64,000 bases of DNA from Lingula anatina (Eukaryota; Animalia; Brachiopoda), in the NCBI GenBank assembly GCA_051362555.1, contig CM120646.1, forward strand, positions 13,764,001 through 13,828,000, given 5' to 3'. The notes under the pieces were generated by a model that worked only from the letters and a program-made list of their open reading frames with translations, searched no databases and was not told the origin of the DNA. Made by a program: the position numbers and the translations under genes. Below are positions 6,101-59,379 of the stretch, piece by piece (the first letter of the stretch is position 1; each line of letters begins with the position of its first letter).

Positions 6101-8343
6101 AAGAGTTATCCCTGGAAGTCTTAGATGTGTGTGTGTGCACTTGCATATCCACATTTTAGGCATTTTTATTTATCTTACATACACATAAACTTCACCTGAA
6201 TCCTTTTCGTTTTCATTTAGAGTAAATAAAACCGCAGCAGCAGTTTTTGTTTCCTTTTTAAAGGATTATTATATGTATATTATCTTTTTTCCAGGGTTAT
6301 GTGTATCATGGTGTGAGATCTGGTGGCAAAGCTGTGCCCAGAACATATAAGGGAGAAGTAGGTAAGGGCATGGTTGCTGTAGAGCATGAGCATACATTTA
6401 TTATTATTATTATTATTAATATTATTATTATTATGTAAGTTTTGCCTTATAAGTCAAGTTTACTACCCACGTCTATGTAATCAGGTGGCCCATTTCAGCA
6501 TCTACAGACTGATACTTTTTACCTGTTACTGTTGTCTGAAGCAAGCTACCACCCCCTTCTAGATAGAATAAAACTAGCATATAGGAGTTGACCTTCCAAC
6601 ACAAATTGTTGGTACCCATCTCTACACCAGGATGAAGAGGAGGCAATGGGTATAAAGTGATTACCTTAACCTCCATGCCATGAATCTCCTGACTCTATGT
6701 GTCCTGCACTTTAAATACCATGTAGACTTCTCTCATTTTTAGTACTTCTTCCTTTCTGTAGCTTTTTGATACAAACTATGCATTCTGTTATATTCCAGAT
6801 GCTCCTGTTCCAGTGACATGTTTAGACTTTCCTCCATTCAGTCACCAGTGTTTTCTGGTAAGACTCAGAACAGTGTATTGGTACAGTCACTGTGTTAGAC
6901 TTTTCTTTGCATAACTCATTTTGGGTGAAAGAGGTAGAAAAAGAAAGCTCTTAAGTAATAGTTTATGAAAAAGACATAGTTTTTTCTAATTTAGATTCAT
7001 GTCCCCAGTACATCATTCTACTCTTTGAATGAAAAAGTGGATGAATACAAATATATTCATTGTCTCAGTGAAGAAACTCGATTGAAGTAGGAAATAAGTT
7101 AACATAGTACATGAGTATTTTCTAACTGCACATTATGTTCTTTTGGTTGTATGGGTTTTAATTAAAAAAAAAAACTAATTTGACATGAGAAAAAAATTCA
7201 ATCTTCAGGCTGGATGTGCAGACGGCAGCATTAGACTTCACAACCTCCATTTGGAGACACCTTTGGTCACATGGTTAAATTCGACCAATGGGAATGCAGT
7301 TCAGGTGATACGGTGGTCAAGGAGTCGTCCTAGTGTGTTCTATGTCCTTGATGCAGCAGCCAAACTTCACGTCTGGGATCTACTGAAGGATGATGCTGCA
7401 CCTGTGAATACAGAGACCTTTAGTCAGGATAGGTCAGAGTCCTAAAAAGCCATTTTTTAATCTGTGAAATTGTAACAGTTTGTTGTGTCATGTCTACAAC
7501 TTTTCTCTGATTAATAACTTATCGTAAAAGGACTTCAGCTTTAGGTTGTACAATGTTTGTTATCACAATTGTATCCTCAGGAAATGAGCTTAAAGAACAT
7601 ATTTGAATCTTGTGTCTTGTGAATAATAGTTCCTATATGTTTAGCAATTTGTATTTTCTAATTGTTTTTCAGTTTGTGTACGTTTTCGCTGTCTAGTGAC
7701 CACAGTGCAACAGGAATGGGACTCCCAAACAGAAAAGCTCAGATGGTCAGTATGCCAGCACATTGATGTTATTATTATTATACAAGTCAGATATATACAA
7801 TAACAGTTTGCAATAATACCAATTTTAATTGCTATTATTTAAAACTGTTATTGTAGTTAAAATATGTAGTTAAAACTATATATGAAGATTTTTATTCATG
7901 TTAGGGAAAATTGATTTTTCTATTTATCTAATACTTCAAATCATGCAATAACTGTTATCATAAAAAAGTATTAGACATCTGAAATGTCTCAGTTCATTGT
8001 CTCAGTTGCTGATATGTCTCAGTTGCAAATGGCCATTTCTGCATGTTTACATTTGGTTTGTTGCCAATGGTTTGTTTTTGTCAAAAGCAACCTTAACCTT
8101 GGAAATGAGTATTATAATTTTTTTGTTATACTGAAATACAGTCCAATCAATTTACCACATAACTATAATTAATTATTATTTATCAAATTATATTTACCAT
8201 ATTAACAGTGTTTATATTATTTGGTGCAGGTGGTGAGTTTCAAGAGAGGAGGGATGGATGTTCACACTCTGAGTCAACACTTAGTAACACAGCAAGTAGG
8301 AGAGCTGGAGGAGTTCCTGAAATATGTGGATAAAGTACTTTAG
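154..8343 (+). CDS. DYNC2I1: Dynein-2 intermediate chain 1 (WDR60), 3' portion; 5' exons lie upstream of the window
   Basis: Approximate exons 154-420, 784-895, 1243-1331, 1670-1793, 2046-2122, 3123-3196, 3546-3621, 4187-4295, 4598-4670, 4930-5029, 5291-5409, 5711-5799, 6295-6361, 6800-6857, 7209-7432, 7672-7745, 8231-8343 (TAG). They encode [83 protein letters not shown] and [13 protein letters not shown], which match WDR60 motifs. Confidence 0.9.
6480..6670 (-). mobile_element. Probable degenerate tRNA-derived SINE remnant in a WDR60 intron
   Basis: The stretch AGGTGGCCCAT...GGTACCCATCTCTACACCAGGATGAAGAGGAGGCAATGGGTATAAAGTG resembles, from memory, the reverse complement of a conserved invertebrate SINE central domain. 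Boundaries are approximate. Confidence 0.4.
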
Positions 8344-9206: not shown

Positions 9207-10950
9207 TATCCTCCACCAGGGTCACTGGTTGATTTTTCACTACAGTAGATATTCACAGGTATTTCTCTTGCTAATTCATGACACAATTCTCCTCTGTAAT
9301 TCTCTTGTGCAAAAAATTGTACAAGATAAATCAGTGGCCCTGGGAGAGGGTTGGATTTCTTCATAATGAATAAAAAAATAGGGTAATTCTTTAAATTCCC
9401 TTCCAGCAGAATTGGAAAGGAACTCTGAGGTTTGTTTTCATTTAGATCTGATTCCATTTCTTGTAGCTTTGAAATTTTATGTTTAATGTGTTCTTTATTC
9501 AGCATTATAAGCATATAAGTTTGAAGACAGAAAGTACTGTGAATTTGCAATAGTTTCTTATAACAAAAGTTTCTGTTGTGCATATTTCTTAAATGCCACA
9601 TTAAGTTGGAAATACTACCACAGGATTGGTTGGTGTTGATGTTATATCTGTTGTATATATTAATATATAATTATAAAGTATAAATGAAATGTGTATATAA
9701 GAATAAGATCAACTTGTTAACTTGAACTGGTCAGTCAGTCAATGTTTAAAGTGTTCATCGTAATGGATAATCTAATTATGGTACATGTATGACATTCCAA
9801 GAAGAGGAAGATACTGTGGAAAGTATCAATTTTTCATTGTTTGAATAAATCTATATGATAAAAACTTCAGACTTTGGTTTTCTTTAAGAGAAATACCAAC
9901 AATTATGATAAATATTTGGTTTATATACGGCCCTAGCTGGCACTTTCTTTACAGTATATGGTCATTTGATACGAAATGAATTAAATATTTCATTATTAAT
10001 TTCATTATTACGTACAAACACACAATATGCATTATTGTAATCAATCACAATTCAAAAATTACAAAAACATTTTGAGAGAAGATTATACTGGTATTATTTG
10101 CAAAAACTTAACATATTTTATTGACTTCAATTAAATGTGCCTGTTATGTATTAAATAAAGAAAAAATGGGTGTGTTTGAATAAAAATTCAGACTAAACAA
10201 AATGCTGCTGGTTCGATTACGAGATTCCCCCGCCCACCCGCCAGCTTCCTGTGTTTGTTCAACCATTAACCTCAGCAGAAATGCAGTAATAAATTTGAAT
10301 TTTGTGTACTTAAAAAAGAGCAAGCAACAGGAAAAAATATATACGCCCGAAGAAAATTTGCAGGTAATAACTAAGCAAAGGTATCACCCTGACCATAATT
10401 TTAAAATGTGTTAGTTGCGATCTAGTTGTGAACCCAAATGCATCCGTCTTCAAGTGTGAAAACTAGGTCAATCTTAAACCCTGTATCCGGTACCTTAATG
10501 CTCAGTCACGCTTCACCGAGCTTGAAGAGGGAGGGATTCCCTCGTAAGACTTGTAGATCGCAGCAGATTCGAAATCGTGAGTTATTTAAATACCCTTTAC
10601 TACCGGTTTTAGGTGTTAACTAAAGTAATTTTTGGCTCAGTTTACACACTTATATTGTACGCCAGTGCTTCTTTTAGCGCAATGACTCGATCCCACAACC
10701 ATATACCCTGTATTTCTGACAGTGTAGATAGATATTTAAAAAATATATGATATTGTACAACCCAGTATAGCAATACACCTACTTGTCTCGTACAAGTTTT
10801 ACGCTGACTACAGGTAGATCGAGTCAGTGCTTGAAATAGACGGCTTCTTCCGAAGAACTCCTGCATGCCCTGACATACTAGTACCTGTACCAGTACATGT
10901 ATTTGCATTACTTTTTAGAATGCTTGGATTGAGGAAGTTTTGAATCCAAC

Positions 10951-13900
10951 ATGGCAACGTCTGACCCTTTCTCTGATCCAGACCCTGAGACTGCAGCAGA
11001 ATCAGAGCCCAGGGCCATGGAAACAGAGGTAGATAGTGCTTTGTTGCAGGTGACATGCATGTGCAGAGTGCATGCAATTTAAAGAGGGTGCTGTGGAAAT
11101 TTCACAGCAGGTACACAATAATATTACAAAACTCAGTTGTTTTTATAGTAGATTTAATAAATTTGATAGCTTACTATATAGGGTACCAGTACCGGAATTT
11201 TCGTAACATATATTGGCATTTTAATTATAGCTACATGTTTTAAAGTCTTTAACTTATTCATATTCAGGGAAGAAGGAAAAGGAAAAAGAAGCCATCCTTT
11301 ATGGATTCTTTTGGTATGTTTGTTTATGAATTTGATAATATATTTCTGATGAAATATATTTATGCTTTTTAAATGTATTAAATTTTCATATTGTCATTTG
11401 AATTGAAATCTTTTCCCAAAAATATAGAATATTTAATTTTCTTTAAAGTTCACTTTAAGATTGAAAATTTTATGAAGAAAAAAACAGTATTAGAGAGAGA
11501 ATTCAGTATGTTTTTCATTGTACATTTCTCTAATTCTAATTTTTTGCCTAGTTGTCAATTAGAAAGTATATCATTCATGAACAAAATCAATATGATGCTT
11601 TTAAAATTATTGCTGAAGATGAATATAGTAACATGAAACATATCAAAGAAATTATATGAATAATAACCTGGTCTTCTTTTTTGTTCATTAAGGATCACTT
11701 TTATCCAGAGCAGGAAGAAGGCTTGGGTTAAAAGCTAGAAATTCTGATGATTCAGTGGAAGGAGAAGTCTCACCAGAATATGTAAGATATATGACAGAGT
11801 CAAGAATTGGCTGGTTAAAAATGATGCGGGAAAGGCTTCACACCCTTTTACAGATTGATAGGGAAAAACATCACAGTGATGAACAATTGAAAGAAATCCA
11901 AGAATGGCATGCGATTGATTATCTTATTCTTATAGATGACAACTTGCTTCCTCCTTCCATAGGTAAATGTCAGAATGTACGTTTGTTACATTTGGGATAT
12001 GGTGTTTATGGAATCTCAATACCTGAAGAAATTCAAAACTTGACACGGCTTTATAAACTGCATTTGCCTAAGGCTCAGCTTGAAAGTCTACCAGATGCTC
12101 TCTTCAATATTGCTGCACTAGAGGATGTCAACCTAGAGAACAACAGATTGACTGATATTCCTGATAGTATACAAAATCTGCCAAAACTGAAGTATTTGAA
12201 CATTACAAACAATAAGCTTACATCATTCCCTGTACAGCTCTGTAGCTTATCATCTTTGGAAAGTCTCCACCTTGGTTCAAATAAGCTTCATGGCATACCA
12301 AAAGAGATTAAGAATCTAAAGAATCTGGGAAGGATTTCTCTATCCAATGCAAATTTGACATCATTCAAGGAAATCTGCTGCAAAGAGATGAAGAAGCTTG
12401 AATTTTTATATCTTAATGGGAACCAAATTACAGAAATTCCACAAGATATAAAAGATCTCGTCAGTTTGAAAGAATTGGATTTGTCTGGCAACCAGATTAC
12501 TGCAATACCAGATGGAATTGTACATTTGGTGGCTTTATGCAAATTATACTTTGCCCATAATGCCATATGTGACATAATGCCAGTATGTCAAAGTGAACTT
12601 TCAAATATCGAAATTTTGTCTTTTCATGAAAATGCATTAAGAAGAATCCCTGGTGAGATCGGAAACTTGTTCAAACTACGAGAGTTGTATATGGGAGGGA
12701 ACAAACTGACAGAGTTACCAGATGAAGTTTGCCACCTGAGTCTACTCCGAACATTAGACCTATCGAAGAATAAACTAAGTCATCTTCCAGAGATGTTTGA
12801 CCAGCTGAAGCATCTGCTCGAGAAGGACATAATCAAACGGGGATTGTCACTTGATGAAAACCCCCTCATTCAGCCCCCAATGTCTGTTTGTGAGAGAGGC
12901 ATTGAAGCAATTCACCGCTACCTCAGAGATCTCCGAGCATCTCGTGCCATTAAGACTGCGCGATTACAACTCCACGTATTGGGTGAAACCACAGCTGGGA
13001 AAACCAGCCTGGTGAGAACCCTCACCTCGGGACAATCCAGTCTCACTGCAATGGCGGATAGGACAAGAGTGGTAGACCAGGTGACATATACCCCACAGGA
13101 GGAAGTCAGCCTCCATATCAATGATTTTGGAGGGCATGAAGTTTATAGAATAGTTCCCAATTTCTTCCTCACCCCAAGGGCTGTGGTGCTGTTGGTTTTA
13201 GACCTTAAAGTGTATGAGGAGAACTCCTTTGACATTTTGGTTGGTTCGTGGATCGAATGTGTTCTTGGGAAGGCACCAGAGGCACATCTCATCCCAGTGG
13301 CAACACATGCTGATATTTGCACTGACGAGGATATAGAAAGGAAGATTGCTCACCTTAATAACGCCATGGAAACACTGTTGACAAACCGACAAGGCAGCCT
13401 GCAGGCGCAAGCTCATAGTATAGCGACAAAGATACGCAGGGTAGAACAGCTACCAAATTTCCAAACTGAAGAAGGGGAGGCTTTGAAGATGGCATATGAA
13501 GAAAAGCAAGCCCAGGTGGAGACTCTGCTCACGAAGCTCCCTACAGTTGCACCCCAGCCCTATGTAATCAGCTCAAAGACTAAACAGGGCATTGATCAAC
13601 TTGACCAGTACCTTCAAGAATTGGCGCGAGACAGAGGGGTCATTCTACCAGAAACCTGGTTTGACATGGTTGATGCTGTACTTAGGGCTCAACTGGAGCC
13701 ACCTATTTACTTGGATGGTGCAATGCTGCAGCGACTGTGGACCACTGTAAATGCTGATGATGTCATGGCTTACATGAAAGAGGCAGGTCATGTGATGTGG
13801 TTTGAGGACAGCAACAGTCTTCGCCACACCATCTTCCACAAGAAAGAGATCGTGTTAGAACTCCTCAAGGCTGTTTTCCGTCATGATATGGCAGAGGTTG

Positions 13901-16154
13901 TGAACCCAAACACCCCACCTTACCAATTTCGGTTTACACCAGCCAAACTTAGAGAAGTGAAAGAAGATTTACTGCGGCGGGGGATCGTCAGTGAAGAACT
14001 TCTTCAGTGCCTTTGGGATGATTTCAAGATGAAGGACCAAGAGGTGGATACCATGCGTTGTCTGCTTACTCACCTGGAGCTATGCTATGAAGTACCTCCA
14101 GAGATTGAAGGTGGTAGCCTCAGCCTTCATTTCCCCTGGTTGTTGACATCTGACATCCCTGATACCTTGGCAACCCGCTGGCCAGACCAGGTGCCCCCTG
14201 AACAGACACAGCTGACCTTGGAAGTACACTTCAATGTGCCATGTCCCATTGGTTTCTTTGAGAGAACCTCCGTGGCACTTCACAAACATCTGGGCATCTT
14301 CAAGACAACTCGTGAAGATTGGCTGGATGGTATCGTCTCACAGGTGGCACACGACCACATCCTCCTGAGGCGCTCCAGCAACCGTATAGTGTTTGCCATC
14401 AGAGGGCCCCGACTTCCTCCAATGTGGACGTTCTTGATTAAGATGTCCGAGCAGATGGGCATGTTTGTGGACAGAGAATGGCCTGGTGTGATATGTGATA
14501 TGTACCTTGTGTGCCCTCACTGTGTTCAAACACAGGTGGCTGAAGACAGCTGCACTCGATTCCCAGCAGAAGTCCTGAAGCAATATGAAGTCTCAGCAGA
14601 AAACTTTCCGTGCCAGAATGCCCCTCCCTCCTGTTTGATTCCTGCCTTCCTGGTGACCCCATATGCACCAGGTAATTCTTATATGTCTTTGTTCGATATG
14701 AAGCATTTGCTGAATACTGAAAAAAAATTAAAATGGTGTTCCCAACTATACAGTGTGTCTGATTGTCTAAGACTAAAAGTTGTTAACGTACCCATGTCAA
14801 CAAGAACTAGCCCACAGTTTCACCTACTGAGAGTTTAAAGCTAAGATCAGCAAAATTACTTCTTGTAAGCAATTACTTAAGCCCCCTTTACAGTAGACGG
14901 CGTCGTTTCTGCGTCCAGCAGTACGGCCCCGTTTGAGAGTTTAAAAATTGTAATATTTTACGTGCCGACAACTGGCCGATCATTGAGCATTCATTCTGAT
15001 ACAAAATCAGTGCTCTTGCCTCCTTATTAAGACCACAGCGATGCCAAATTTCATGGTCGCAGAAAGGACGCTGTCCAGTGTAAAGGGGGTATTAATATTT
15101 ATTGTGTTTCAGACCTGGGGTTCATGACCAGAACCAACCGTGAAGCCTTGCGGAGAATGAGGCTGAACATTGTCCATGATACAACCGAACCAGCCGTAAA
15201 GAATATTTTAGATTGGCTCAACCAGGAAGGGGTAAGCCACATTACAATAATGTAGATCCTTATATTTGTGTATATAACATGTTCATATTTTATAGGTCCA
15301 TTAATATTGAAACTACCCATATGAATTCAAGAGTGGTATGATAAAATGGATATCAACTGAAATTGCTATTTTGATAAGATGAAATTTGTTTGAGATGATG
15401 CAATGAAAAAACTATGAGATGTATGGTACAAGCATAAATTTCATGAAGTTTAACAGAAAATTTATTACTTATATGTAATTTAAAATAAGTCCTTTTATGT
15501 CATGGGTAATGGTGAATTTCCCATATCCAGGTATTATCAGACAGAGAGATGGAGGATATCAGATGTATTGGTTCAACTGAAGACACCCCAGATATGGTGG
15601 CAAGACTTCTGGATATGTTGCCTGGGAAAGGTGACCGAGCTTTCCACCTTTTCTGTGAGGGCCTCAGAGACAATGGCTACCCTCACGTGTGCAATGCCTT
15701 GCTGTAAGTTAGGAGATATTATTTTTTGTAATTTATTTATTTATTTTTTTTTGTGTGACATGGTTTGGTGTCTGTTCCTTTACACTGTGCTTGAAAGAAA
15801 GAACTTCGAAAAGGGAAGCGGATTAGTTCAGTGAAGTTGTAAGTTTTTTTTTTTGAAAAATTTCATCCAAGGTGAAATGTAAGATGGAAAAGAAAATAAA
15901 TTGAAAGTTGGTCAGCACAGGATGATTGATGCTTAATTTCCTTGTTTTTTTTTGGTTTTGTTTTTTTTTGTGAACTGAAGGTTTTGGAAACTAGACTAAG
16001 TACTACATTGCCAGAACTGTTATTCCAGTACCTGTAGTTATATTGACTATATGAACAAAATGTGCCTCTTTATATCAAATGATATATTTTAATATCATTT
16101 CTGAGTAAAACCAAAATTCCACTTTTCTGTTCCAGGAACCCGCCTTCAACCTAA
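10951..16154 (+). CDS. MFHAS1-like ROCO protein: LRR-ROC-COR plus C-terminal CARD
   Basis: Exons 10951-11028 (MATSDPFSDP..), 11268-11313, 11693-14671, 15113-15231, 15531-15703, 16136-16154 (TAA) are phase-compatible. Contains many LxxLxLxxNxL repeats, P-loop GETTAGKTS, G3 DFGGH, G4-like ATHAD and COR-end EWPGV..LVCPHC. Exons 4-5 encode a CARD-like REALRRMRLNIVHD..ILDWLNQEGVLSDREMEDI..RLLDMLPGKGDRAFHLFCEGLRD. Confidence 0.88.
14880..15091. mobile_element. MITE, PIF/Harbinger-like (~212 bp), in the intron between the COR and CARD exons
   Basis: Imperfect ~32-bp terminal inverted repeats, CCCCCTTTACAGTAGACGGCGTCGTTTCTGCG and CGCAGAAAGGACGCTGTCCAGTGTAAAGGGGG, with TTA on both flanks (14877-79, 15092-94). 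Confidence 0.7.
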
Positions 16155-16452
16155 AAGATGAGGTTTGGAGAACAGAATGGTTACATCTGAAAGATTCATT
16201 CATAAAGTGGAATTCTGAAAATTGACAATTTTTTTAGTTTTTGTGTCCAAGTTATTAACTGAACAACTTGATAAGTCAGTGTCTGCCATCTTTTCCAGGA
16301 ACCCGCCTTCAACCTAAAAGATGAGGTTTGGAGAACAGAATGGTTACATCTGAAAGATTCATTCATAAAGTGGAATTCTGAAAATTGACAATTTTTTTAG
16401 TTTTTGTGTCCAAGTTATTAACTGAACAACTTGATAAGTCAGTGTCTGCCAT
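16130..16452 (+). repeat. Tandem direct duplication (~160 bp, period 163) of the ROCO terminal exon start
   Basis: TTCCAG|GAACCCGCCTTCAACCTAA...GTGTCTGCCAT occurs at 16130-16289 and again at 16293-16452. Confidence 0.92.
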
Positions 16453-17273
16453 TGATGGCACTGGTGACACACCTGTCACAATTATCATTGCCTTTATTTG
16501 ACACATTATTGGTGCTTTAAGCGTAAATATATATTTTTATGTGCAGCAGTAAATCAATCTATTCAAGCAGAGATCTCTATTTATATATAAGCAGAGATTG
16601 CTATTATGTGAAATATTTTATTATGTGAACTTAAACCTCGTGCAAGGTACGTGATAAATTAAGTTAATCCCAAAACTGTATTTCTGTCTGTGTCTTAGTA
16701 AATATGTCATGACTTATATTGCAAATATAAGTAATATTACAAATGATGATAAAGAAAAAAGTGGGATGGATGCTCACATTATTTTGGTTAAATGTATTTT
16801 TCTTGGATTGGTTTTTCTACTGAAATGCCAAATTAGTCAGTGTTATTTAGAAAAGTATCACAGTAAATAGTTTGCTTGTAAGTGGTTAGCTCATAATCAG
16901 TAAATTTGTTATGTAACAATAAAATGGCTTACAAAAGTCGGTGTTCAAATGTCTATTTATATATCATTAATAAAAATGTCTGCACTTTTTGATAGAAAAA
17001 ACATGCCATGACAAATCCATGAGCAATAAAATCAATTTGAAATAAACAAAGACGTGAGTTTTTCAAAATTGTTTAGTTAAGTAACAAACAGAAATAGTTA
17101 GTGTGCATATTGCATATTTTAAGTGAGTACAACCTACATAAAATGTCAGTCTGTATATGGCCTGCGAGAGCGCGTGGAGCTGCCTGCTGAAGCGGGGCCT
17201 CTTGAGGCACGTACGTTGTTTGGATGTTACCCGTACTTGTTGAAGTCGGTACTTCACGCCATCGATTGAAAAA

Positions 17274-24503
<7,230 letters not shown>

Positions 24504-32815: not shown

Positions 32816-35431
32816 ATGGGTTTTAGAATAGGGAAAGTTTACGTTTTGATTCTTTTAATCTCAACAGCTGCTATTGGGCAAAGAAGAATAAGCTTAGGGC
32901 TTACCCCTGAACAAGCTTCTTGTCCAAAATACCCAGATGACGCTACAAAATTTCATTTGGAGAGCAAAAAGGAGAAAAGTAATGGTGAAATGAGACAAAA
33001 TTTCGTGGAAGACTTGGCAGCTACAAGAAAGGAAAAAGAAAGCAATATCTTGGTTGCGCCATGGAGAAGACGACGCAATCTCCCTGACGCTCCCCTCTCT
33101 GCTTTCTTTTCATCCACCACGCTACCGACTACAGATACAGTGAGCAGAACGGAAGACCCAACGCAAGCTATCACTCCCTCTGTTAGCCAAACACTCTCTA
33201 CTGACAATAACGGACAGTTCCAGACAACTGAAAGAACCATCGTATTTCCTCAACTATATGATAACCAATCAAAATACCTCATATTCCCTACGAACAGGCA
33301 AGTTTGCGTGTCGTTTCGGTCGTCAAGGCAACAGTTTCATATTGCCCGGATTAGTTGTTTCTGCGACGGTTACTGTGGGCTTTTTAGTGATTGCTGCTCA
33401 CCATTTTTACAGTGTCCCGATGCCTCAAACTCAAGCTCAACCCAAAACCCCTCAGCAGCAAGTAGCAAAATTAATATTTCATTGCACAGCATCGAATGCA
33501 AACCACAGGTTACAAAATTAGTAAGTAAAATGAAACCCAGCTACTACTGGATGATACGATCCTGTCCAGATGAGGGGTATAATTCACAGGTAAGAGAAAA
33601 ATGTGAAAATCCTATTAATTTTACCATCAACAATATTCAGCCTGTTTCTGACAAACGCACGAAGCTAACATTTAAGAACCGATATTGTGCCATGTGTCAT
33701 GGCATTACAAATCCCGCGCTGTGGTCGCCTTTTTTAATTTGTAGTGAGGATATTGACATGGAACACTTTCGGAATTTATCAAGCTTGGACGACATATTGG
33801 AGCTGGCACAAACACCTTTTTGCGCTATCCACTTTGAGCCACAATATGATAGTCCAGGAAGACTGTGTGTGGACAAAAATCGTGGCTTTGTTTCACATAG
33901 AGGATTCGTGGATGAATGGGCCTGCCCAAAGGACTCTCCGTTGACTGATTTGTGCAAGGCAAATTCCGTATCAGTTACACGTGTGATCACACACGGTGTA
34001 GAGTATCTAGTTAAAAATGTGTTCTGCTGGCTGTGTACCATGGTCCGGTCTGACACACCTGTCACAGTGAATGATTGTTCAACAAATGGTACGTATTTAT
34101 GTGAACATGTCTAATATCTGAGCATGGAAATTGATATTCGATGCGAGTGTATAAAACGTTAGGTATGAAATAAATAGAACAAATAATACATTTTCGTATT
34201 CATGATTTTGCTTAAGCGTAGGGGACGGAAAGGCATTTTTTCTTTTTATCTGAAATGTAGTCACCAGGATGGAAATTTGCTTTGTTTTGTTAGGCATGTA
34301 CTTTTCGCCTTATTCTTGTAATATTAATGACGTCCGTTTTTCAGATAATAAAGAACGTGGGTTCAATCCATTAGGATTAAGCGCATTCATCAATATATCG
34401 CACGGAAGCCAACAGTGTCGTCCATTGTCTAGTGCTGTAAGTCTATTATTTTCTTGTATTATATATTATACTATTTATTTTGAAAATAATATCTTTTCAG
34501 CGACATTATTCTTAACTCCATTTGCGTGGTTTCTATTTGAATCCCATATCGGGGGTGGGTCCGGGGGAGAACGAAAAACTTTGCACCCCCTATATCTTTG
34601 CTTCATGTCCTGGTTCCATCCGTGCCTTTCATTTCACACAAAAATATATACTAATGTAAAATCATGAGCAGACTGTTTAAAAATGCTTAACCATATTCGA
34701 GTCACCTTACCAGATATATCATCATCATCATCATTGTAAAATGCCCTGAAATGTAATCCCCCTCCCCCCCCCCCAAAAAAAAGAACAACATTATCTAAAA
34801 ATCATTCAAAGCGTATTTTTTTCAGATTCCATGCACAAATGACGTTGCACAAACCGGATGTTGGCTTCTGTCTGAGTTACACAACTTAGATTTCTATGTG
34901 GACTTCGACCTCGTATGTGTTAACAGCACAAGTATGAACCAGACCTGTGCAGAGTACAGAGCACTTAGTTCTCAACTCCAAAGTTTATTCATGAGGGGCA
35001 AGTTTCGTTCCGTTTTATCTACAGTAGGGACGGTCGTTTGGTTCTGGGTGTCTACGCCACACCGTTGTGTGACGTCGCCAGAGGCATCTCCCTTTGTTAA
35101 AGGTAAACGTGAGATTCGGATCTCAGAAAAAATTCTTTTGAGAAAACCTGTCAGCAGATACAGCGATGCTTTGAAGATGTTCACAGACTTCCAAGACAAG
35201 ATTGAGCGAGAGGTTCGTGACAAAAACATCGTATTTCAATATGGTGGGCTGGAATACGATTTACGAGTGATACATAATCAGCACACCATCTGTCCGCGCA
35301 GTACAAATGCACCAGAACCGAAACCGAAACCAAAAACGACTGCTAAGTCATCCAAAGATGCCCCTGGATTTAAGGTATCCCTGTTTATAACGGTTATTTT
35401 ATGTATACAGACAGTGGGGATACTGTTCTAA
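32816..35431 (+). CDS. Secreted or surface SMB-like Cys-rich protein, paralogue A
   Basis: Exons 32816-34088, 34345-34436, 34826-35431 join in frame. Signal peptide (VYVLILLISTAAIG), RRRR polybasic site, S/T-rich stalk, SMB-like CFCDGYCGLFSDCC, PVSDKRTKLTFKNRYCAMCHG, KNVFCWLC and a hydrophobic C-terminus (VSLFITVILCIQTVGILF*). Confidence 0.8.
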
Positions 35432-37531: not shown

Positions 37532-38811
37532 ATGGGATTTAGAAAAGGAAAAGTTCATCTTTTAATTCTTTTAATCTTAACAGCTGCTATCGGAAAAAGA
37601 AGAATAAGCTTAGGGCTTACCCCTAAACTAGCTTCTGGTCCAAAACACCCAGATGACGCTACAAAATTTCAGTTCGAGAGAAAAAGGGAGAAAAGTAATG
37701 GTGAAATGAGACAAAATTTCGTGGAAAACTTGGCAGCTGCAAGAGAGAAAAAAGAAAGCAATATCTTGGTTGCGCCATGGAGAAGACGACGCAATCTACC
37801 CGACGCATCCCTCGCTGGTTTCCTTACATCCACCACGTCACCGACTACGGATGCAGTGAGCGGAACGGAAGCCACAACGCCCGGTATCGTTCCCTCTGCT
37901 AACCAAACAATCTCTATTGACACTAACGGACAGTTCCAGACTACAGAAAACCCCCTCTCCGTGTTTCCTCAACTAAATGATAACCAATCAAATTATCTCA
38001 AATTTCCTACTAACAGGCAAGTTTGCGTGTCGTTTGATTCAATAGTGCAACTGTTTCAAATGGTTTGGATAAACTGTTACTGCGACGATTATTGTGGTCT
38101 TTTCAGAGATTGCTGTTCACCATTTTTACAGTGCCCAAGCTCAAACTCAACCCAAAACCCCTCGGCAGCTAGTAGTAAAATTGATATTTCATTGAACAGC
38201 ATCGAATGCAAACCACAGGTTACAAAGTTAGTAAGTAAAATGAAACCCAACTACTACTGGATGATACGATCCTGTCCAGATGAGGGATATGATTCACAGG
38301 TTCGAGAAAAATGTGAAAATCCTGTTGATTTTTCCATCAATAATTTTCAGCCAGTTTCTGACAAACGCACAAAACTTACATTTAAGAACCGATATTGTGC
38401 CACGTGTCATGGCATTACAAATCCCGCGCTGTGGTCGCCTTTTTTAATTTGTAGTGAGGATATTGACATGGAATACTTAAAGAATTTATCAAGCTTGGAC
38501 GACATATTGGAGCTGGCTCAAACACCTTTTTGCGCTATCCACTTTGAGCCACAATATGATAGTCCAGGAAGACTGTGTGTGGACAAAAATCGTGGCTTTG
38601 TTTCACATAGAGGATTCGTGGATGAATGGGCTTGTCCAAAGGACTCTCCGTTGACTGATTTGTGCAAGTCAAATTCCGTATCAGTTACACGTGTGATCAC
38701 ACACGGTGGAGAGTATCTAGTTAAAAATGTGTTCTGCTGGCTGTGCACCATGGTCCGGACTGAGACGCCTATCACAGTTGAAGACTGCTCGTCAAATGGT
38801 AAGAGAGTGTG

Positions 38812-38864
<53 letters not shown>

Positions 38865-40211
38865 TACTTCTATGTGAGAATATAAAATATTTGGTGTGCT
38901 ATAAATACAACAAATAATAGTATCTCTGGTTTTGCTTGAGCGTAGGGGACAAAAAGGCATTTTTTTTCTTTTTTAAACATAACTACAGAATAGACGAGTT
39001 TTTACTGAAATGCACGGTAGTCACCGGGATAGAAAGTTGCTTTATTTTGTAAAGCATGTTATGCTTTTTGCTTTATTCCTAATTCTTATAAATTCACTGA
39101 CGTTAATTTTTCAGATCACAAGGAACGTGTGTTCAATCCATTAGGATTAAGCGCATTAATCAATATATCGCACGGAAGCCAACAGTGTCGTCCATTTTTG
39201 AGTACTGTAAGTGTCTGCTTTTCTTTTATTTTACATTATTCGACATAATGGCTTCGTTTCACGAAGCATAAAATGCTACATTTACATTTAATGGGAATGA
39301 GATGCTTCACGAATCACACTAAATAAAATGGCCGTTTCACGCATATCGGGAAATAAAGCTGCTTAATCTAAAACGAAAATACCCAATGGGACTTTCTTAT
39401 ACAGGGGTGCTTACGTAAAGGCATTTGTATTAAATTTGACGGCAATGAGCAGATAATTAAAAGAGGCTTAACCATATTCATGTTACCTTATCTCAGAAAT
39501 ACATTATCATTGTGAAATGCCATGAAATGCACACATTTCCAAAATATATATATAGATAAATAAACATTATCTAAGAAAGAATTCAAGAGCGTGTTTAAAT
39601 TTCAGATTCCATGCACAAATGACGATGCACAAACCGGATGTTGGCTCCTGTCTGAGTTATACAACTTAGATTTCTATGTTGATTTCGACCTCGTGTGTGA
39701 TAACAGCACAAGTATTAACCAGACCTGTGCAGAGTACACATCACTTAGTTCTCAAGTCCAAAGTTTGTTCCGGAAGGGCAAGTTCCGTTCCGCTTTATCT
39801 ACAGTGGAATCGGTCGTTTGGGTCTGGGTGTTTACGTCACACCGTTGTGTGACGTCGCCAGAGGCATCTCCCTTTAAGAAAGGTACACGTAAAATTCGGA
39901 TCACAGAAAAATTTCTATTAAGAAAAACTGTCGGCAGATACAGCGATGCTTTGAAGATATTTACAGACTTGCAAGACAAGATTGAGCGAGAGGTTCGTGA
40001 CAGAAACATCGTACTTAAATATGATGGGTTGGAATACGATATACGAGTGATACGTAAGCAGCAAACTAGCTGCCCCGATAATTCAAATGCAGCGGATCCG
40101 AAACCGAAACCCTCAATGACTGCTAAATCTTCCGCAGCTACTCCTGGCTTTCAAGCACATCTGCTTTTAACGATAATTTCATGTATAGGGGAGATAAAAG
40201 AACTGTTTTAG
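37532..40211 (+). CDS. Secreted or surface SMB-like Cys-rich protein, paralogue B
   Basis: Exons 37532-38798, 39115-39206, 39606-40211. Same exon structure and phases as paralogue A, and highly similar protein (CYCDDYCGLFRDCC, KNRYCATCHG). Confidence 0.8.
38816..38861. repeat. (TA)n microsatellite in intron 1 of paralogue B
   Basis: Directly visible run; it produces the YIYIYI tail of the ORF-track entry. Confidence 0.95.
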
Positions 40212-51150: not shown

Positions 51151-54100
51151 ATGCAACTGTGCACAGGTTCGTCGCTATGGTGGCTGTGTATTGCAATACT
51201 GCAGTTTTTTCATCGTGTTAACAGTCACGGCAAGATGACGTCACCAGAGCAGAGAGATCCCAGGAACACTGGTGTCAACTGCGGGGGGCTATATGTAAGT
51301 TATGGAGCAATATTTTCAATGCAAATTTATTAAATTTTCAGTATATTGTCAAATTAATGTTCTGTCGGTTATATATTTATCGTTTCTGGCATGCTGTACT
51401 TAAAACTTTCAGTGATGTTGGTCTTGAAAAACCAGTAGTTTCGTAAAATCATATTCATTTAATTTCCCAGTATCAGACGCAGAATGGTGGTAGGTGTGGA
51501 GTGTGCGGTGACCCAGTGGGAGGGCCTTTCAAACACGAAATTCCAGGACAGAATGTGAAAACGTACAAACAGGTAGGAATTAGTCAAAAATTCCAGCGAA
51601 CGTCTCTCTTTTGTACAGTATGGCCATTGTAGGTGGTTTGTTCTCTTAAAACCTCTGTCAAGTAAAAAAAATTGGTACATAGCTCAAGACGTATTAAAGG
51701 CGATAAAAGTTAGCCTTTTGAAAGTATATGAAAAGTTTGCTTTTTCCCCTTTATTGTTTTGAACCTGATCATCACGACTAAGACTAAAGAGAAATCACAT
51801 CAACGATGATTTAATTGATAGTAGTGATGATTTACTGGATTTTTTTCCAGGGCGAGACAATCAACGTCAAACTAGTCATAACGGCCAAACACATGGGCTG
51901 GCACGAGTTTCGCATCTGCAAAAACGACGACAAGACCAGGGTGACGCACGAGTGTATGGATAAGAACCTCCTAGTTATACCACTGAAGGATGGAACGACC
52001 GTCACTCGCATATTTGAACCAGATGATGGACGGTAACTATGTGAAAAACATATTTCAAAAACGCTATAATTTTTTTTATCGAATCTCCAAAGCTATACAT
52101 CTAAGATTCAGTGGCGAGATCAAGGTCATTTGATAAAGGGGAAAAACGCCATCCTTATGAAATTGTAAACGATTTAATGTACTCTTCTCATATATCTGTT
52201 CTTGTCCGTTTCACATTTGGTGCTTTTTGAAGCAGTTAATTTGCATGAAACGTTATACTTACAGTTGTAAATGTCAAATGGGGCAAAAACTTCTTTTTCG
52301 ATTCAGCTGCTTATAGGCCTCCCACATATGCACTTCTGCGTGTATATATATAGGCCTATTGTACAGTTTAGTTCCCAGAATTTATTGAATTTAATTATCC
52401 TTTTTCTTGTCACAATACTTAAAAAAATAACCACTAAGAATATCGGCAGACAAAAAAAAATTGAAATGCTATCATCAATATATCGCATAATGACTCTGAT
52501 CTTATCATTTACATTCAGTATGATAGTGACCAATAAACAGATATATGCTTACTCGTAAGTTAGGTGGGATTCATTATTTATTTTCAGTTTCGTCAGCTCG
52601 ACTATGTACCCGTTCGTGGGCAGTGGGTCCACTTTAGTGGTACCGGTCAAGTTACCGCCAGATCTGACCTGTGACCATTGTGTGTTCCAGTGGAAGTGGC
52701 ACTGTGGTGAGATGGCATCTTTTATTAATCTTGATAAATTTGTGTGTATCAATCACAGAATTTGAATTTTTCCGATATGGAATTTGCAGCTTTTTTAGTT
52801 GAAATAATTTGAAAAGCGCATGTATTAAAGTGAAAGCTTGTATATAAACGATGGAGCTATAACACTGTATACACGTAAAAAACATGTATGCACGGGCTCA
52901 ATAATGTGCATATTTCGAATTCAGGATCTTTCTTTCAACAGGTAACAACTGGGGCCCGGGAGGCAAAGGGACGGGACCACAGGAGGAGTTTTTTGGTTGC
53001 GCCGACATTGCAATAGAGGGCACTGCAGCTCCACCGACCACGACAACCCTGCTTCCTCCTCTGCCAACTCTGCAACAACCTGCAGACCAGGGACGTAAGT
53101 TTACTACTTCGACTTAAGTTTTCCAAGTCATGATTTCAAAACATGATTTTTTTTAACTTCGTGTTTGCATTTTATAAAATGAAAGTGAGCGTTTTAACAA
53201 TTAAAACTGTCTGATTCATAAACTATTTGCACCTCCATGCCTCATGATACATCATCTGTGGATGACAAAATGCACACCTTTAAAATACAAAAGCAGCAGT
53301 ATTTAACTACTGCTATAGTGTACTTCATACAGCAACACGCGTTACCACGCCGTCTATCTTTCTGTATATAGACACCGTGCACGAAGTCATGAGGATGAAG
53401 ATAGACAGAAGAAACACACAACATATGTTTTATCATGCATAATATTAAGAAATTAATAAATGTTAACTTTTTCCCAGATCAAATGAAGATGGGGTGTTGG
53501 TTCACCAGCTGGGCACAGCACAGACCAGAAAGGGGGCAGTTCCTTCCAGCCGATATTGACCCCAACCTCTGCACCCATATATACTATGCATTCGCCAAGA
53601 TAAATTTTGACGGAACTAGTTACGAGCTGAAAACTGTGGAATCGAATGACCAAGGTCTGTGGTTGATTAATGTTATGAAAATGTGCTCATTAAGATTGGT
53701 TATTTATTCTAAATTTTAATACACGTGTGAACAACAATTCTGATGCTTGTTTGAACCGTACATTTTATTATATAGTTTGCTATGTTTGCTATATAGTATC
53801 CTGTGTGGTCAGAATATGCTTAAGTTGAGAGAGCAAAACCCAGGCAACATAATGTTGAAGTCCAATATGATTTAAGTCGTTGATACAGTGTATTATCCGT
53901 TATGTCGCTGAGCTTAAATCACGAAACTATTACTAGGCCCAAGAATTCACTGCTTTTTTTGCACTCGCTATCAACACATATATATATGACGCAAATTTCA
54001 TCTCCCCGAAAGACCACATGGAGCAAGTTGTGAAGCTGAAAACCCGCAACCCAGCTCTGAAGGTTCTGCTGGCGGTGGGCGGCTGGAGCCATCCCTTGGA

Positions 54101-56440
54101 GATCTTCAATGAGCTGTCAAAAACCACCGAATCCAGGAGAGATTTCATAAGCAACGCAATTCGCTTTTTAAGAATGTACGGGTTCGATGGACTGGATTAT
54201 GACTGGGAGTACCCGGGGGATGTTGACCGTGGAAGTCCCCCAGAAACAAAGCAGTCTTTCTCAGATCTGGTCAAGGTATTGTGTTTATAGAATAATGCGA
54301 TGTAGAAATACACATATGTATCATTGATACTTTTTAAAATAAGAACTCGTCTAAAATCTGTACTCGTACAGTTCGATTATTGTGCTTTGGACAACCTTAT
54401 TTATAGAATATCTAAGAAACATATTTCATATTTAGGAAACAAGGCTTCGTTTCCAACAAGAGGCCGAAGTTAAAGGCAAGAGACGATTACTAGTTACAGC
54501 ATCGGTAGGAGTAACAGATGAGAAAATTAACGACGGTTACAATATAGCAGTGATGAACAAGTAAGTTATATGCCTGTGAAACCGTCTTTTTATTTCCAAA
54601 GATGTCTCATGAATTGAAAAAGTTTTAGTAGATCAAATATATATGAAGTTGTTATGTTTAGCGACATTTAAAAGAAAAATGATATAAAATAAATCTTCCT
54701 TTATGCAACTGTTAATGTTAGACTCCATGATATAAATCGACAAATTGACCATGTAATGGGATATTGACAGAACTGATTTTATCCAGTGACCCGCAGAATG
54801 CAAATTGAAGATGTCAATCAATATTTCAGATACCTTGATTGGACGAACCTGATGACCTATGACCTTCACGGGGCGTGGGATGGCTATCTAGGTCACCACG
54901 CTGCCTTGTTTGCCAGATCAGATAATTCAGGGAGCCAGGATACTCTCAACATTGTGCGTCCTTCATTTTTGTCTATCTCCATTAGCATAGCTGTGTGTTC
55001 TTAATATTAAAACATAATAGATTTCAAGTTAAGGATACAAACTCTGTACATTTTCTGCGAGACATTCTGCCATACTATGAAATACATCCGATACTGCAGT
55101 GGCGAACTGACAGCCCAACAAAAACGGAGCGTTTTTTAACTTTACCATATCGTTACAAAAACGATTTTTCGGCAGATAAACGTTATGGAAACGTTCTATA
55201 ATAACGTTCTGCGTTTGCTGAGAGTAAGCGATTCATTTTTTCCCTTTTTTCCAGGACTATATCGTCCGGAATTGGATAAAGAAAGGCTACGATCCCAGCA
55301 GGCTTGTTCTTGGGGCCGTTTCTTACGCGCGCACCTTCACCATGACTGACAGTAATGCCTACTCGCCGGGAGATAGAGCAACTGGTGCGGGAATCGCTGG
55401 ACCCTATACCAAACATGCAGGATTTCTTGGTTACAATGAGGTGCGTGCTGCACAATTGTGCTCACCATACGTTTTTGACTAAGATACAAATATACCGATG
55501 TATCCATTTATCAAACCTTTTGCTGAATCATCAGTAGTAGAGCAAATACATTTTGACTCGTCAGAACATGCAACACGAAACAAAACAAACCGCTATATAT
55601 GCGCTTCAGACCCTTCATAACAGATTAAAATTAATACACAAATATGCACGTAAAATTTTGTTGTCAGATTTGCGAGCAGAGTGGCTGGGACGAAGTCTTT
55701 GACCCGCAGATGAGGGTACCATATGCATATAAACCAGACACGAAACAGTGGGTGGGATATGACGACCCCAAGAGCATGGACTTGAAGGTACCGCAAATCC
55801 ACCGATCTGAAATCAAATCGCCGCTGTTTGTAAAACCCTAGCTTATTATAGCTCATAACTAGAGTTTTCAGTTGTTCTAATTTTATCTATAGGTTCTTCC
55901 ATAATCCAAATATGAGTCATGATACTGATCTTAAAATCCAGAAATAGGAGTAATTTAAGCTTATAAATATGTCACACCTGACGTGGTAGTAACTCTCAAG
56001 ATTATCCATACAAATTTAACTTAGAAATGAATTCACGATATGAAGAGCGTTATCCCCCTGGGCCCAAAGTATCTGACACATATATCATATAGATAAACAA
56101 AATCAGGTATTTGTGTAGAAAAAGAAAGACATTCACGTCGTTTCTCCTATAGGCCGACTACGTTTGCAAGATGGGTCTTGGAGGGCTCCACGTGTGGGCG
56201 ATGGACATGGACGACTTCACAGGGAGGTCTTGCAACGAGGGGAGATATCCTCTCCTCACTGCTGCCAAGGAGGGTCTAAAGAAATGTTCCACTGCCGGAA
56301 ATCCGGGACCCGGCACGAGACCGCCTTCAGCCAATAGCATGAACTTCCGGTGCGGACCAATAGCTGTGTGGTGCGAGGCTGGGAAAAGATGTCTAAAGCC
56401 TCGCCAATGTCTGTACTTGACACGATCAAGAGGGAAATAA
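51151..56440 (+). CDS. AA15-type LPMO-GH18 chitinase fusion, copy 1 (ends in a partial CBM14)
   Basis: Exons 51151-51294, 51471-51572, 51851-52032, 52588-52706, 52942-53094, 53478-53654, 54013-54275, 54436-54560, 54830-54953, 55255-55440, 55668-55787, 56153-56440 are all phase-compatible. Signal peptide then HGKMTSP..NCGG..GRCGVCGDP..TAKHMGWHEFRIC..LPPDLTCDHCVFQWKW..GNNWG..PQEEFFGCADI (LPMO), a P/T linker, and GH18 motifs LCTHIYYAFA, KVLLAVGGW, FDGLDYDWEYPG, MTYDLHGAW, WVGYDD, WAMDMDDF. Confidence 0.9.
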
Positions 56441-58693
56441 ATTTTGATTATTTGATTTTCAATATCCGGATCTTAATACAATACATCTTTCTAACACTTT
56501 TTTCCATGTGTTATAAATAATATTATTATCGGATATACATGTATCTGAATACGTACTGACAAGACCCAAAATTATTGAAGTTACTACAACTGTAGTACAG
56601 GTAGAATAACTGTTCAGGTTTAAGTCATCGACTATTGCCATATGCGTCTTAAAAGAGTTTTTCTTCAACAATCACCTTCTATCATGTAAATGTGAACGTT
56701 TCATATTCACTCTTTTACATTTATACATGTAACTTGGGCCTATGCAGGTATTTTAAGCGGAAAATAAACTGCTATTATTTGCATTAAATTGTCATTGTTA
56801 AAATTGTGTATTTAGCCTATTTCAGAGTGGCTGGATATCGTAGCAGGCCACTGTCCAAGACAGTCATAATTTGTAATCTAAGGTACATATGTACATGTCA
56901 ATTACATCGCGTCACTTGCAAGTAAAGCAGATTGGCATATGGAGTCGACGTTTAAATAGATTTTAATCTAAAGCCATTTAGTCCAATATATACACGACTT
57001 TGGTTGGAAAAAATGTTAATTAACGAAGGTTTCGAAAGGGAATCGGGTCCTTAGGGGCTCAACACATTATAACAGTTTTCCACTGGAAGTCACCTATTGC
57101 AAAGATTTGGCATTTTTTTCAAAACTTTAACAAGTAGTTAAAATCTTATGGTGCAACACTGATGGGCACAGAACGTCGGTCATCATAAACACAGCAATGC
57201 AACCCATGCCCGAATAGTCTTTATTCTGAAGCTATTGTTGTAGAATCACGAAGACGATGAACCAAAGGACCTCCGTCTCCGCTAGCGTGTAACTATCAAA
57301 ATAGGGCGCTTTTTTCTGAAAAGGCAGGCTTGCAGGTAACAATTTCAAATGGGCGAAGTTCTTTCTCTGAAACATGGATTTATAAGACCCCAAGCATTGG
57401 ATTTATCTGACGCATTATGAAAAACCTTTGATGAATAACGCACTTTTTTCGGACAAAAGGTTCTTTCGACGCCCCCTCTCCGAACCCCTTTCCCTGCCTA
57501 CAGGCCTGACAACGATTTAAATGTACATGTATTGTAGTTATATCCCTTCTCGCGTAGCAAAGAATGTGCTAATTGAATTTTATGCCCTTCAGCCATCTCT
57601 CTCTATGTTTGGCTTAGCAATGGAAAGACTTTGTGTCTATACACTGAATCGAACCCAGCTGAAACGGTGGCTTCATTTTTCAGTTGGCAAATTAGATATC
57701 TTTTGAAAGTAAGGGCCAGTGAATTGTAAAGAGATTAAGTTATGTCGACATGCTTCTAATAAACAAGCGCACTGATGCAGTGAATATGAATCTGATGGTG
57801 ACAATATATTTGGTATGTGGCGACAAGTTCTGTATATTGAAGAGGCGTTGAAATTCGGGACCAGTACTTTCTAAGTCAAGTGATGAATTGGAATGGGTCA
57901 TTGGTTTTGTATGTGTCTTATGCCAAGAAAAGTCATGTAAACTAATATCCAGGGCGGTCAGTGACCTTCTTCAAACAGGTTACGAGGAGTTTTACCTCTA
58001 AGCAAAGGTCAAAGCCGTGTTACAGGTATGGTGAAGATGAGCAATAATACGATCCCATCTCCAATATTTCGCACTGAGCACCACCTTTAAAAAGTACACG
58101 ATGCAACATTCTGTACATTTACAATACCATTTCATTGTTTCACAATTTCACGAATAATCTTTGGGTATAAAGGACAATCCTATATAAAAGATATAAAGAA
58201 GATATGATAGTAAATCATCCATGGTAGTTTTATTGCTCAAAAATAATCTCAATTGTTGATTGCCTTAAAATGTTTCATTTTTTAAAACAGTAAGCCTGAA
58301 TGAAAAATTTCAAAGTAGTTGGTTTTACTCAAAGTGACAAGTTTAAAGCCTGTTGAAATACTAATTTCTCATGGATTAAGTAATCGTAGAAGGGTATAAA
58401 ACTTTGATTAGTTTTCCATTCCCCTTAAGCAGTCTCAACTGAGTCCAAACAATCAATTTACTTTCTAAAAAGCGGGACCGATACTCTTACGGTATTTATA
58501 CAGAACCAGATGCATGGATTAAAGAGCATGATAAAACCAGTTAAAACATTATTTATTTATTTTTATATTCCCCATATTTAGCAAATGATGTTGAGTATAA
58601 CGTCGTTCTTTAAAAAATTGTGGACTTGACGTTTTCCTCCGGGCATTGTGTCGTATATACTTTACAGATTTTACACGGGATGGCCTGGATTGT

Positions 58694-59334: not shown

Positions 59335-59379
<45 letters not shown>

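What the first reader, a model, noticed from the sequence alone, without database searches (positions are those of the whole stretch)
10951..16154. LRR-ROC-COR-CARD: a ROCO GTPase built like an innate immune or cell-death receptor
Seen: the 1027-aa ORF runs into an intron at 14672. The next two exons (15113-15231, 15531-15703) continue in frame and encode about 95 aa with CARD hallmarks (EALRRMRLNIV; ILDWLNQEGVLSDREMEDI; ARLLDMLPGKGDRAFHLFCEGL), close to the caspase-2/RAIDD/caspase-9 type. Established: vertebrate MFHAS1 is LRR-ROC-COR with no CARD, and CARDs recruit caspases or adaptors through homotypic contacts. Inference: an NLR-like sensor-switch-effector protein using a ROC-COR GTPase switch instead of NACHT, with the effector exon-shuffled onto the C-terminus through a phase-1 intron.
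Basis: partly seen in the sequence, partly recalled or inferred. Interest (0 to 1): 0.78.

Follow-up and report, generated by a model that had tools for sequence, protein, structure and literature searches.

The report
Brachiopod LRR-Roco GTPase with CARD tail
This is a real, spliced and expressed gene of a lamp shell (brachiopod) that joins sensor-type repeats, an LRRK2-like GTP switch and a caspase-recruitment domain in one protein, one of about thirty such proteins in this animal, and it likely works as an inside-the-cell alarm that switches on cell-death enzymes, a job not yet tested.

Summary
Observation confirmed. Six coding exons (10951-16154) give a 1137-aa LRR-ROC-COR-CARD protein, near-identical to two RefSeq 'MFHAS1 homolog' proteins of Lingula anatina. 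The COR/CARD junction is spliced in 8 of 8 RNA runs. The tail scores as Pfam CARD (E 4.6e-13), and all GTP-binding motifs are intact. It sits in one Lingula clade of 40 records, 31 with a CARD-like tail. Within Lingula the CARD follows the GTPase core, so tails are not swapped there. In more distant relatives the same slot holds Death, CARD, GT4, OTU, TIR, trypsin or a caspase, which supports a sensor-switch-effector design. It is not an NLR (no NACHT, reversed order). The idea is partly in print: Trichoplax ROCO with CARD, bacterial LRR-GTPase-COR-effector defence proteins, brown algal ROCO receptors. This scan has also noted LRR-less ROC-COR-CARD genes on other DNA. I found no description of the Lingula expansion, but could not read Gerdol 2018. 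Against a fast-evolving sensor: this copy's variants are mostly synonymous and not enriched in the LRRs. Partner and function are untested. New variant of a known kind; interest 0.5.

The parts
10403..10576 (+). 5' untranslated exon (start approximate), spliced to 10919
   Evidence: joint 10576/10919 GT..AG, 11 reads in 2 of 4 runs; depth in bin 10403-10703
10951..11028 (+). coding exon 1 (ATG at 10951), low-confidence N-terminus
   Evidence: matches P0001/P0002; joint near 11025/11265 in 2 of 4 runs
11268..11313 (+). coding exon 2, basic stretch
   Evidence: matches P0001/P0002
11693..14671 (+). coding exon 3 (2979 nt): all LRRs, ROC and COR in one exon
   Evidence: RNA depth throughout
11968..12879 (+). 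LRR solenoid, about 12-13 repeats in the model (9 by strict pattern)
   Evidence: Pfam LRR_8 4.9e-37
12970..13581 (+). ROC GTPase: P-loop 12982-13008, switch I Thr 13057-13074, DFGG 13123-13134, G4 13300-13314, helical insertion, G5 13567-13581
   Evidence: PF08477 1.1e-10; motif positions; conservation
13726..14616 (+). COR-A (13726-14103) and COR-B (14209-14616), ending in a conserved CPHC...C cysteine cluster (14512-14523)
   Evidence: Pfam hits below cut-off; whole-model match to LRRK1, LRRK2 and C. tepidum Roco
14672..15112 (+). phase-1 intron between COR and CARD; holds a MITE-like repeat at 14871-15100
   Evidence: spliced in 8 of 8 runs; inverted arms
15113..15231 (+). coding exon 4: linker and CARD helices 1-2
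15531..15703 (+). coding exon 5: CARD helices 3-6
   Evidence: PF00619 1.7e-8 alone
16136..16154 (+). coding exon 6: last five codons and stop; lies in a 163-nt tandem duplication (16126-16288, 16289-16451)
   Evidence: RefSeq ends match; 9 joined reads in 1 of 4 runs

Best explanation
The gene encodes an LRR-ROC-COR-CARD protein that likely acts as a cytosolic, GTP-gated signalling receptor which recruits a CARD caspase or CARD adaptor. Shown: architecture, splicing, expression, intact GTP-binding motifs, family expansion. Inferred from other Roco proteins: the ROC-COR unit cycles between monomer and dimer with its nucleotide state, dimerising through the C-terminal half of COR. Inferred from position: the CARD hangs about 15 residues behind COR, so dimers or higher oligomers would bring CARDs together. 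Inferred from CARD biology: clustered CARDs would seed CARD-CARD assembly with a Lingula CARD caspase (caspase-Y group) or CRADD, giving apoptosis or gasdermin-E cleavage. The LRRs would gate this by binding a microbial or altered-self ligand. This copy is a conserved, deep-branching member and may be a helper or guard for the fast-duplicating paralogues rather than a variable sensor.
For: Splicing and expression in 8 of 8 runs. CARD by Pfam and by structure: 19 of the top 21 rows are named CARD proteins, best Z 9.7, rmsd 2.8, 81 aligned. Model with 74 sequences pLDDT 85.6, pTM 0.78, best matches LRRK1 and C. tepidum Roco. G1 Lys in 66 of 66 rows with a residue there, of 74. 40 Lingula records, 31 with a CARD-like tail, LRR counts from 4 to 27 in those with an LRR array; one clade, SH-aLRT 99. 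Of 46 relatives picked for having a tail, 28 carry a known effector: Death 14, GT4 7, CARD 3, OTU 3, TIR 2, caspase 1, trypsin 1, FIIND 1. P0090 is LRR-ROC-COR fused to a QACRG caspase. Lingula is reported to lack APAF-1, PIDD and caspase-2 but to have six caspase-Y and CRADD (bioRxiv 10.1101/2023.12.11.571055, passages), and to have GSDME (PMC11508797, passages).
Against: No ligand, partner or activity is shown. Of 36 coding variants listed in exon 3, 26 are synonymous; non-synonymous are 4 of 16 in the LRRs and 6 of 20 in ROC-COR, so no sign of diversifying LRRs in this copy (only 40 of 224 variant rows were shown). No CARD, caspase or other immune gene among 118 other ORFs of the window; neighbours are WDR36-like and TTL-family genes. 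A Roco dimer gives two CARDs, whereas apoptosomes and inflammasomes use rings of seven or more (own knowledge). Lingula also has ordinary CARD-NACHT-LRR proteins, so it does not need a substitute. The VIA Z of 9.7 came from a low-confidence model and is within the range the tool calls common for helical bundles.
Confidence: 0.5

Rival explanations
1. A non-lethal signalling scaffold, like MFHAS1 or SHOC2: the LRRs bind a host protein and the CARD links to a kinase or adaptor pathway (NF-kB or MAPK) without activating caspases.
For: Conserved LRRs with mostly synonymous variation; steady low expression in all 8 runs; human MASL1 acts in ERK signalling (PMC4104024 passage); SHOC2 among LRR structural matches.
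Against: Lineage-specific expansion with variable LRR number; conflict-type effectors and a caspase in the same slot of relatives.
Confidence: 0.27
2. A brake or decoy: the CARD sequesters caspases or adaptors (as ARC does) and the GTPase controls their release.
For: ARC CARD is among the tied structural matches, 29% identity; a dimer may be too small to nucleate a CARD filament (own knowledge).
Against: Decoys are usually short; direct caspase fusion in P0090 implies activation, not inhibition, in at least one relative.
Confidence: 0.15
3. The CARD exons belong to another gene or are an annotation artefact, and the protein is a plain LRR-ROC-COR.
For: The large exon has an open read-through to a stop at 14838; 9 of 40 Lingula records lack a CARD tail.
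Against: 57 junction reads in 8 of 8 runs and no depth in the read-through part of the intron; two RefSeq proteins with the same join; CARD kept in the same place across the clade.
Confidence: 0.02

Closest known systems
MFHAS1/MASL1-type (group 1) Roco proteins
   Same: N-terminal LRRs, ROC, COR, no kinase; NCBI names the protein an MFHAS1 homolog
   Different: C-terminal CARD; about 40 records in one species against a single vertebrate gene; orthology to vertebrate MFHAS1 not tested
Trichoplax adhaerens ROCO repertoire (Civiero et al. 2014, PMC4104024, passages)
   Same: Lineage-specific expansion (17 or more genes) of ROC-COR proteins with CARD, death, TIR, LRR and TPR domains
   Different: Mixed architectures; I could not see the figure, so whether LRR-ROC-COR-CARD in this order occurs there is unknown. 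The Lingula clade is uniform
Bacterial LRR + AP-GTPase + COR + variable effector counter-invader proteins (Kaur et al. 2021, PMC8195603, section 15 and supplement searches)
   Same: Same order and same proposed logic: LRR sensor, GTPase switch, C-terminal effector slot (24 or more domains, including TIR, caspase, trypsin, GT4)
   Different: Prokaryotic. In the supplements held as text (one file cut) 'COR+CARD' had 0 hits, while animal APGTPase+COR+Death and +DED+TRADD-N+caspase rows occur
Brown algal LRR-ROCO candidate immune receptors (PMC11378527, passages)
   Same: Expanded LRR-ROC-COR family proposed as immune receptors
   Different: There each LRR is its own exon under diversifying selection; here all LRRs, ROC and COR share one 2979-nt exon, and there is a CARD
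NLRs with CARD (NOD1, NLRC4) and APAF-1
   Same: Repeat sensor, nucleotide switch, CARD effector
   Different: No NACHT/NB-ARC STAND ATPase; order reversed; Roco cores are known as dimers, not rings
DAPK1; Aplysia ROCO-TIR/Death proteins (PMC9334734, passages)
   Same: A death-fold or TIR signalling domain on a ROC-COR core
   Different: DAPK1 has kinase and ankyrin repeats, no LRR, and a death domain; the Aplysia proteins carry TIR/Death, not CARD

Membership tests
Roco (ROC-COR) GTPases | ROC domain with G1-G5 motifs | tested here: met
   PF08477 41.9 bits, cut-off 27; motifs located and conserved
Roco (ROC-COR) GTPases | COR domain directly after ROC | tested here: met
   COR-A and COR-B hit in order but below Pfam cut-off; model matches LRRK1 E 7e-32 and C. 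tepidum Roco E 2.5e-30 over LRR-ROC-COR, MbRoco2 Z 25.0, rmsd 3.7, 302 aligned
Roco (ROC-COR) GTPases | GTP binding/hydrolysis and nucleotide-dependent dimer cycle | not testable with these tools
   needs biochemistry
CARD (death-fold) domains | CARD profile score above cut-off | tested here: met
   PF00619 49.4 bits, cut-off 23.9
CARD (death-fold) domains | six-helix bundle closest to CARDs | tested here: met
   helices at 1043-1134 in both models, block pLDDT 79-95 in the second; CARD rows Z 8.0-9.7 above DD, DED and PYD rows Z 6.8-7.2
CARD (death-fold) domains | homotypic binding to a CARD caspase or adaptor | not testable with these tools
   no Lingula caspase or CRADD sequence was obtained (blank)
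Caspase-2/RAIDD/caspase-9 CARD subtype | closer to these CARDs than to others | tested here: inconclusive
   caspase-1, BinCARD, NLRC4, Apaf-1, ASC, caspase-9 complex and ARC rows tie within about 1 Z
NLR / STAND receptors | NACHT or NB-ARC ATPase | tested here: not met
   no such Pfam hit at E 0.01; the central domain is ROC
NLR / STAND receptors | N-terminal effector, C-terminal repeats | tested here: not met
   order is LRR-ROC-COR-CARD
MFHAS1 orthologues | LRR-ROC-COR without kinase | tested here: met
MFHAS1 orthologues | groups with vertebrate MFHAS1 in a tree | not tested
   no named vertebrate MFHAS1 among the sequences held; most relatives are unnamed
Diversifying LRR immune receptors (brown algal ROCO type) | one exon per LRR | tested here: not met
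   single 2979-nt exon
Diversifying LRR immune receptors (brown algal ROCO type) | excess amino-acid change in LRRs | tested here: inconclusive
   no excess among 36 variants of this copy; no codon test across paralogues was possible

The most novel reading that the evidence does not exclude
Marine invertebrates have a second, unrecognised class of intracellular immune receptors built on a Roco GTPase instead of a STAND ATPase, with an exchangeable C-terminal effector; in Lingula, which lacks APAF-1 and PIDD, about thirty LRR-ROC-COR-CARD proteins are main activators of the CARD caspases, a GTP-switched apoptosome or inflammasome.
Probability: 0.25. Interest if true: 0.85.

Novelty: new variant of a known kind. 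Interest (0 to 1): 0.5.

Why it matters
It names concrete candidates for an open question: what activates CARD caspases in brachiopods, molluscs and annelids that lack APAF-1. It extends the bacterial LRR-GTPase-COR-effector defence design to an animal gene family. It also offers a kinase-free Roco protein with a proximity-driven output, so one could read directly which nucleotide or oligomer state of ROC-COR is 'on', a debated point for LRRK2 and MFHAS1.

Tried and rejected
No whole genome was held, so paralogue gene structures and true gene number could not be checked; P0001 and P0002 differ at 23 positions and may be alleles or haplotigs, so 40 records overstates the gene count. The sequencing-run index listed no RNA holder; the runs laid were same-species additions. 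A search with the CARD alone among proteins under 626 aa found nothing at E 10 among 94 candidates, so no partner sequence was available. The single-sequence fold was poor (pLDDT 35.7) and was used only for the CARD region. Co-folding two copies of residues 690-1139 gave no verdict (score 0.00, alignment not used); it is not counted either way. Organism names for the unnamed relatives could not be obtained; Atlas clusters near the ROC-COR-CARD part are mostly Mollusca (Roc/COR/Death) and Porifera (CARD in 26% of members), score 0.93; the Atlas search with P0090 gave only leads under 0.9. PDB sequence search with the family profile gave Roco and Rab chains and no CARD in the 60 rows shown of 81. 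Interchangeable tails within Lingula: rejected, CARD and ROC-COR identities correlate (Spearman 0.88, 0 of 2000 permutations, 28 proteins), though this mostly reflects subfamily structure. NLR membership rejected. Gerdol et al. 2018 is not held. A search of earlier scan findings by sequence found nothing.
Full report
Observation. The window holds a long frame at 11791-14838 (1015 aa from its first ATG) with LRR, Roc and weak COR hits, and the exon at 15531-15704 scores as CARD on its own (E 1.7e-8). Joining six GT..AG-bounded exons (10951-11028, 11268-11313, 11693-14671, 15113-15231, 15531-15703, 16136-16154) gives 1137 aa with one terminal stop. This differs at 11 and 20 positions from two database proteins named 'MFHAS1 homolog [Lingula anatina]' (P0001, P0002), so the source is this brachiopod.

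Splicing. Eight of the nine listed RNA runs were laid, each read in part (6-30% of the run). The junction 14671/15113 has 57 reads in 8 of 8 runs and 15231/15531 has 48 reads in 7 of 8. In one search the intron bins 14708-14861 have no depth, so read-through to the stop at 14838 was not seen. Stranded libraries place the RNA on the + strand. The last exon is supported by 9 reads in one run and by both RefSeq ends. The intron before the CARD is phase 1, the one inside it phase 0, the last phase 2.

Domains. P0001 scores LRR_8 1e-37, Roc 1.4e-10, COR-A 7.5e-6, COR-B 0.0036 and CARD 4.6e-13; the two COR scores are below Pfam's cut-off. A model built with 74 sequences has pLDDT 85.6 and pTM 0.78 and matches LRRK1, C. 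tepidum Roco and LRRK2 over LRR-ROC-COR. The C-terminal helical bundle of the earlier, poor single-sequence model matched CARDs in 19 of the top 21 rows, best Z 9.7, rmsd 2.8, 81 residues; death domains, DED and PYD scored 6.8-7.2. The subtype cannot be called. P-loop, switch I threonine, DxxG, G4 and G5 are present and conserved across the 74 rows.

Family in Lingula. Two searches gave 40 Lingula-named records. 26 of 40 carry a precomputed PF00619 hit, and 31 of 40 match a profile built from the family's own tails, which is partly circular. One subgroup has two CARD-like units in tandem. Of the 9 without a tail, three stop before COR ends, one is labelled partial, and three leave their CARD-bearing sisters right after COR with residues that a read-through phase-1 donor would give. 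That is inference from proteins only, and the position differs by some residues between subfamilies. LRR counts by a strict pattern run from 4 to 27 in records that have an array. On ROC-COR alone the Lingula rows form one clade: FastTree 0.997 on the rows that passed a coverage filter, SH-aLRT 99 with 17 chosen Lingula rows among 62. This gene is a long, deep branch, at most 37% identical to any paralogue apart from its own near-copy. CARD identity tracks ROC-COR identity (Spearman 0.88), so tails were inherited with the core, although deep nodes of the CARD tree are weak.

Wider family. A profile search gave 277 representatives at E 1e-30; the best 150 were listed, 136 of them not recognised as Lingula. 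I scanned the 46 that had a tail or extra length and left 90 unscanned. 28 of 46 carry a known signalling or effector domain: Death 14, GT4 7, CARD 3, OTU 3, TIR 2, caspase 1, trypsin 1, FIIND 1, with overlaps; 18 had no hit at E 1e-5. A few lack LRRs or are fragments. One clade (SH-aLRT 100) holds Death, OTU, GT4 and caspase tails on closely related cores, which is real effector exchange. P0090 is LRR-ROC-COR joined to a caspase with QACRG. The three other CARD-tailed proteins lie on three separate branches: repeated gain, or old gain with losses. Their organisms are unknown; Atlas neighbours are mostly molluscan and sponge clusters.

Evidence against a fast-evolving sensor. Among 36 listed coding variants in exon 3, 26 are synonymous, and amino-acid changes are no more frequent in LRRs (4 of 16) than in ROC-COR (6 of 20). 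Only the 40 best-supported of 224 rows were shown, and reads from near-identical copies may be mixed in. The gene is single in the window, between a WDR36-like and a TTL-family gene, with no death-fold or caspase hit among 118 other ORFs of 75 aa or more.

Mechanism. The best reading (0.5) is an LRR-gated GTP switch whose dimer or oligomer cycle clusters the CARD and recruits a CARD caspase or CRADD. The dimer cycle is taken from C. tepidum Roco (PMC5714945, abstract; PMC6337361, passages: dimerisation through the C-terminal half of COR). Partners are taken from a preprint reporting loss of APAF-1, PIDD and caspase-2 and six caspase-Y in Lingula (10.1101/2023.12.11.571055, passages; supplements not seen) and from PMC11508797 (passages: NLRC, CARD caspase and GSDME in brachiopods). 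None of these steps was tested here. Rivals are a non-lethal scaffold (0.27), a decoy (0.15) and artefact (0.02).

What is known. ROCO proteins with CARD and death domains in Trichoplax (PMC4104024, passages; figure not seen). LRR + AP-GTPase + COR + variable effector as bacterial counter-invader systems (PMC8195603, section 15 read whole; supplements searched, one file cut: no 'COR+CARD', but animal GTPase+COR+Death and caspase fusions). Brown algal ROCO receptors (PMC11378527, passages). Aplysia ROCO-TIR/Death (PMC9334734, passages). An Owenia caspase with a ROC pro-domain. PMC8662601 and PMC6321704 (passages) and the Lingula genome paper PMC4595640 (supplement search only) gave nothing on this family. 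Nine library searches listed no paper on an LRR-ROC-COR-CARD family in Lingula, but the library lacks most subscription papers, including Gerdol et al. 2018 on Lingula immunity. The scan's own notes record LRR-less ROC-COR-CARD genes in two other genomes. Ring sizes of apoptosomes and the inhibitory role of ARC are recalled, not from a call.

Verdict. Real, expressed and correctly read by the first stage. It is a Roco protein with a true CARD, not an NLR. The design is a known kind; the uniform CARD-tailed expansion in an animal without APAF-1 appears undescribed and is testable. Interest 0.5.

Noticed in passing
window 14871-15100: MITE-like element in the COR/CARD intron: 47-nt arms, 79% complementary; hundreds of RNA reads from other copies lay on it, so it is a dispersed repeat.
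   Followed up: partly
window 16126-16451: 163-nt tandem duplication (99%) that copies the last exon and its acceptor; reads fit either copy.
   Followed up: partly
window 14512-14523 and about 14610: CPHC plus a third cysteine, kept in 74, 73 and 72 of 74 aligned relatives, just before the effector slot; possibly a zinc site.
   Followed up: no
window 13330-13540: Long two-helix insertion between G4 and G5 of ROC (residues about 588-657), predicted as a hairpin; a possible binding or dimer arm.
   Followed up: no
P0090, P0070, P0083, P0086, P0092, P0095, P0096, P0098 (unnamed relatives): One well-supported clade of LRR-ROC-COR proteins with caspase, GT4, OTU or Death tails: the clearest case of effector exchange, worth its own study.
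   Followed up: partly
window 17272-22100: Spliced TTL-family (tubulin glutamylase-like) gene directly downstream; junction 17300/18139 in 2 of 4 runs.
   Followed up: no
window 32816-34114 and 37532-38917: Two tandem, similar cysteine-rich secreted-type ORFs with weak Somatomedin B hits.
   Followed up: no
window 53405-63761: Two convergent GH18 chitinase genes, a CBM14 exon and an LPMO-like gene piece.
   Followed up: no
window 7179-7442: Exon of a WDR36/Utp21-like gene upstream.
   Followed up: no
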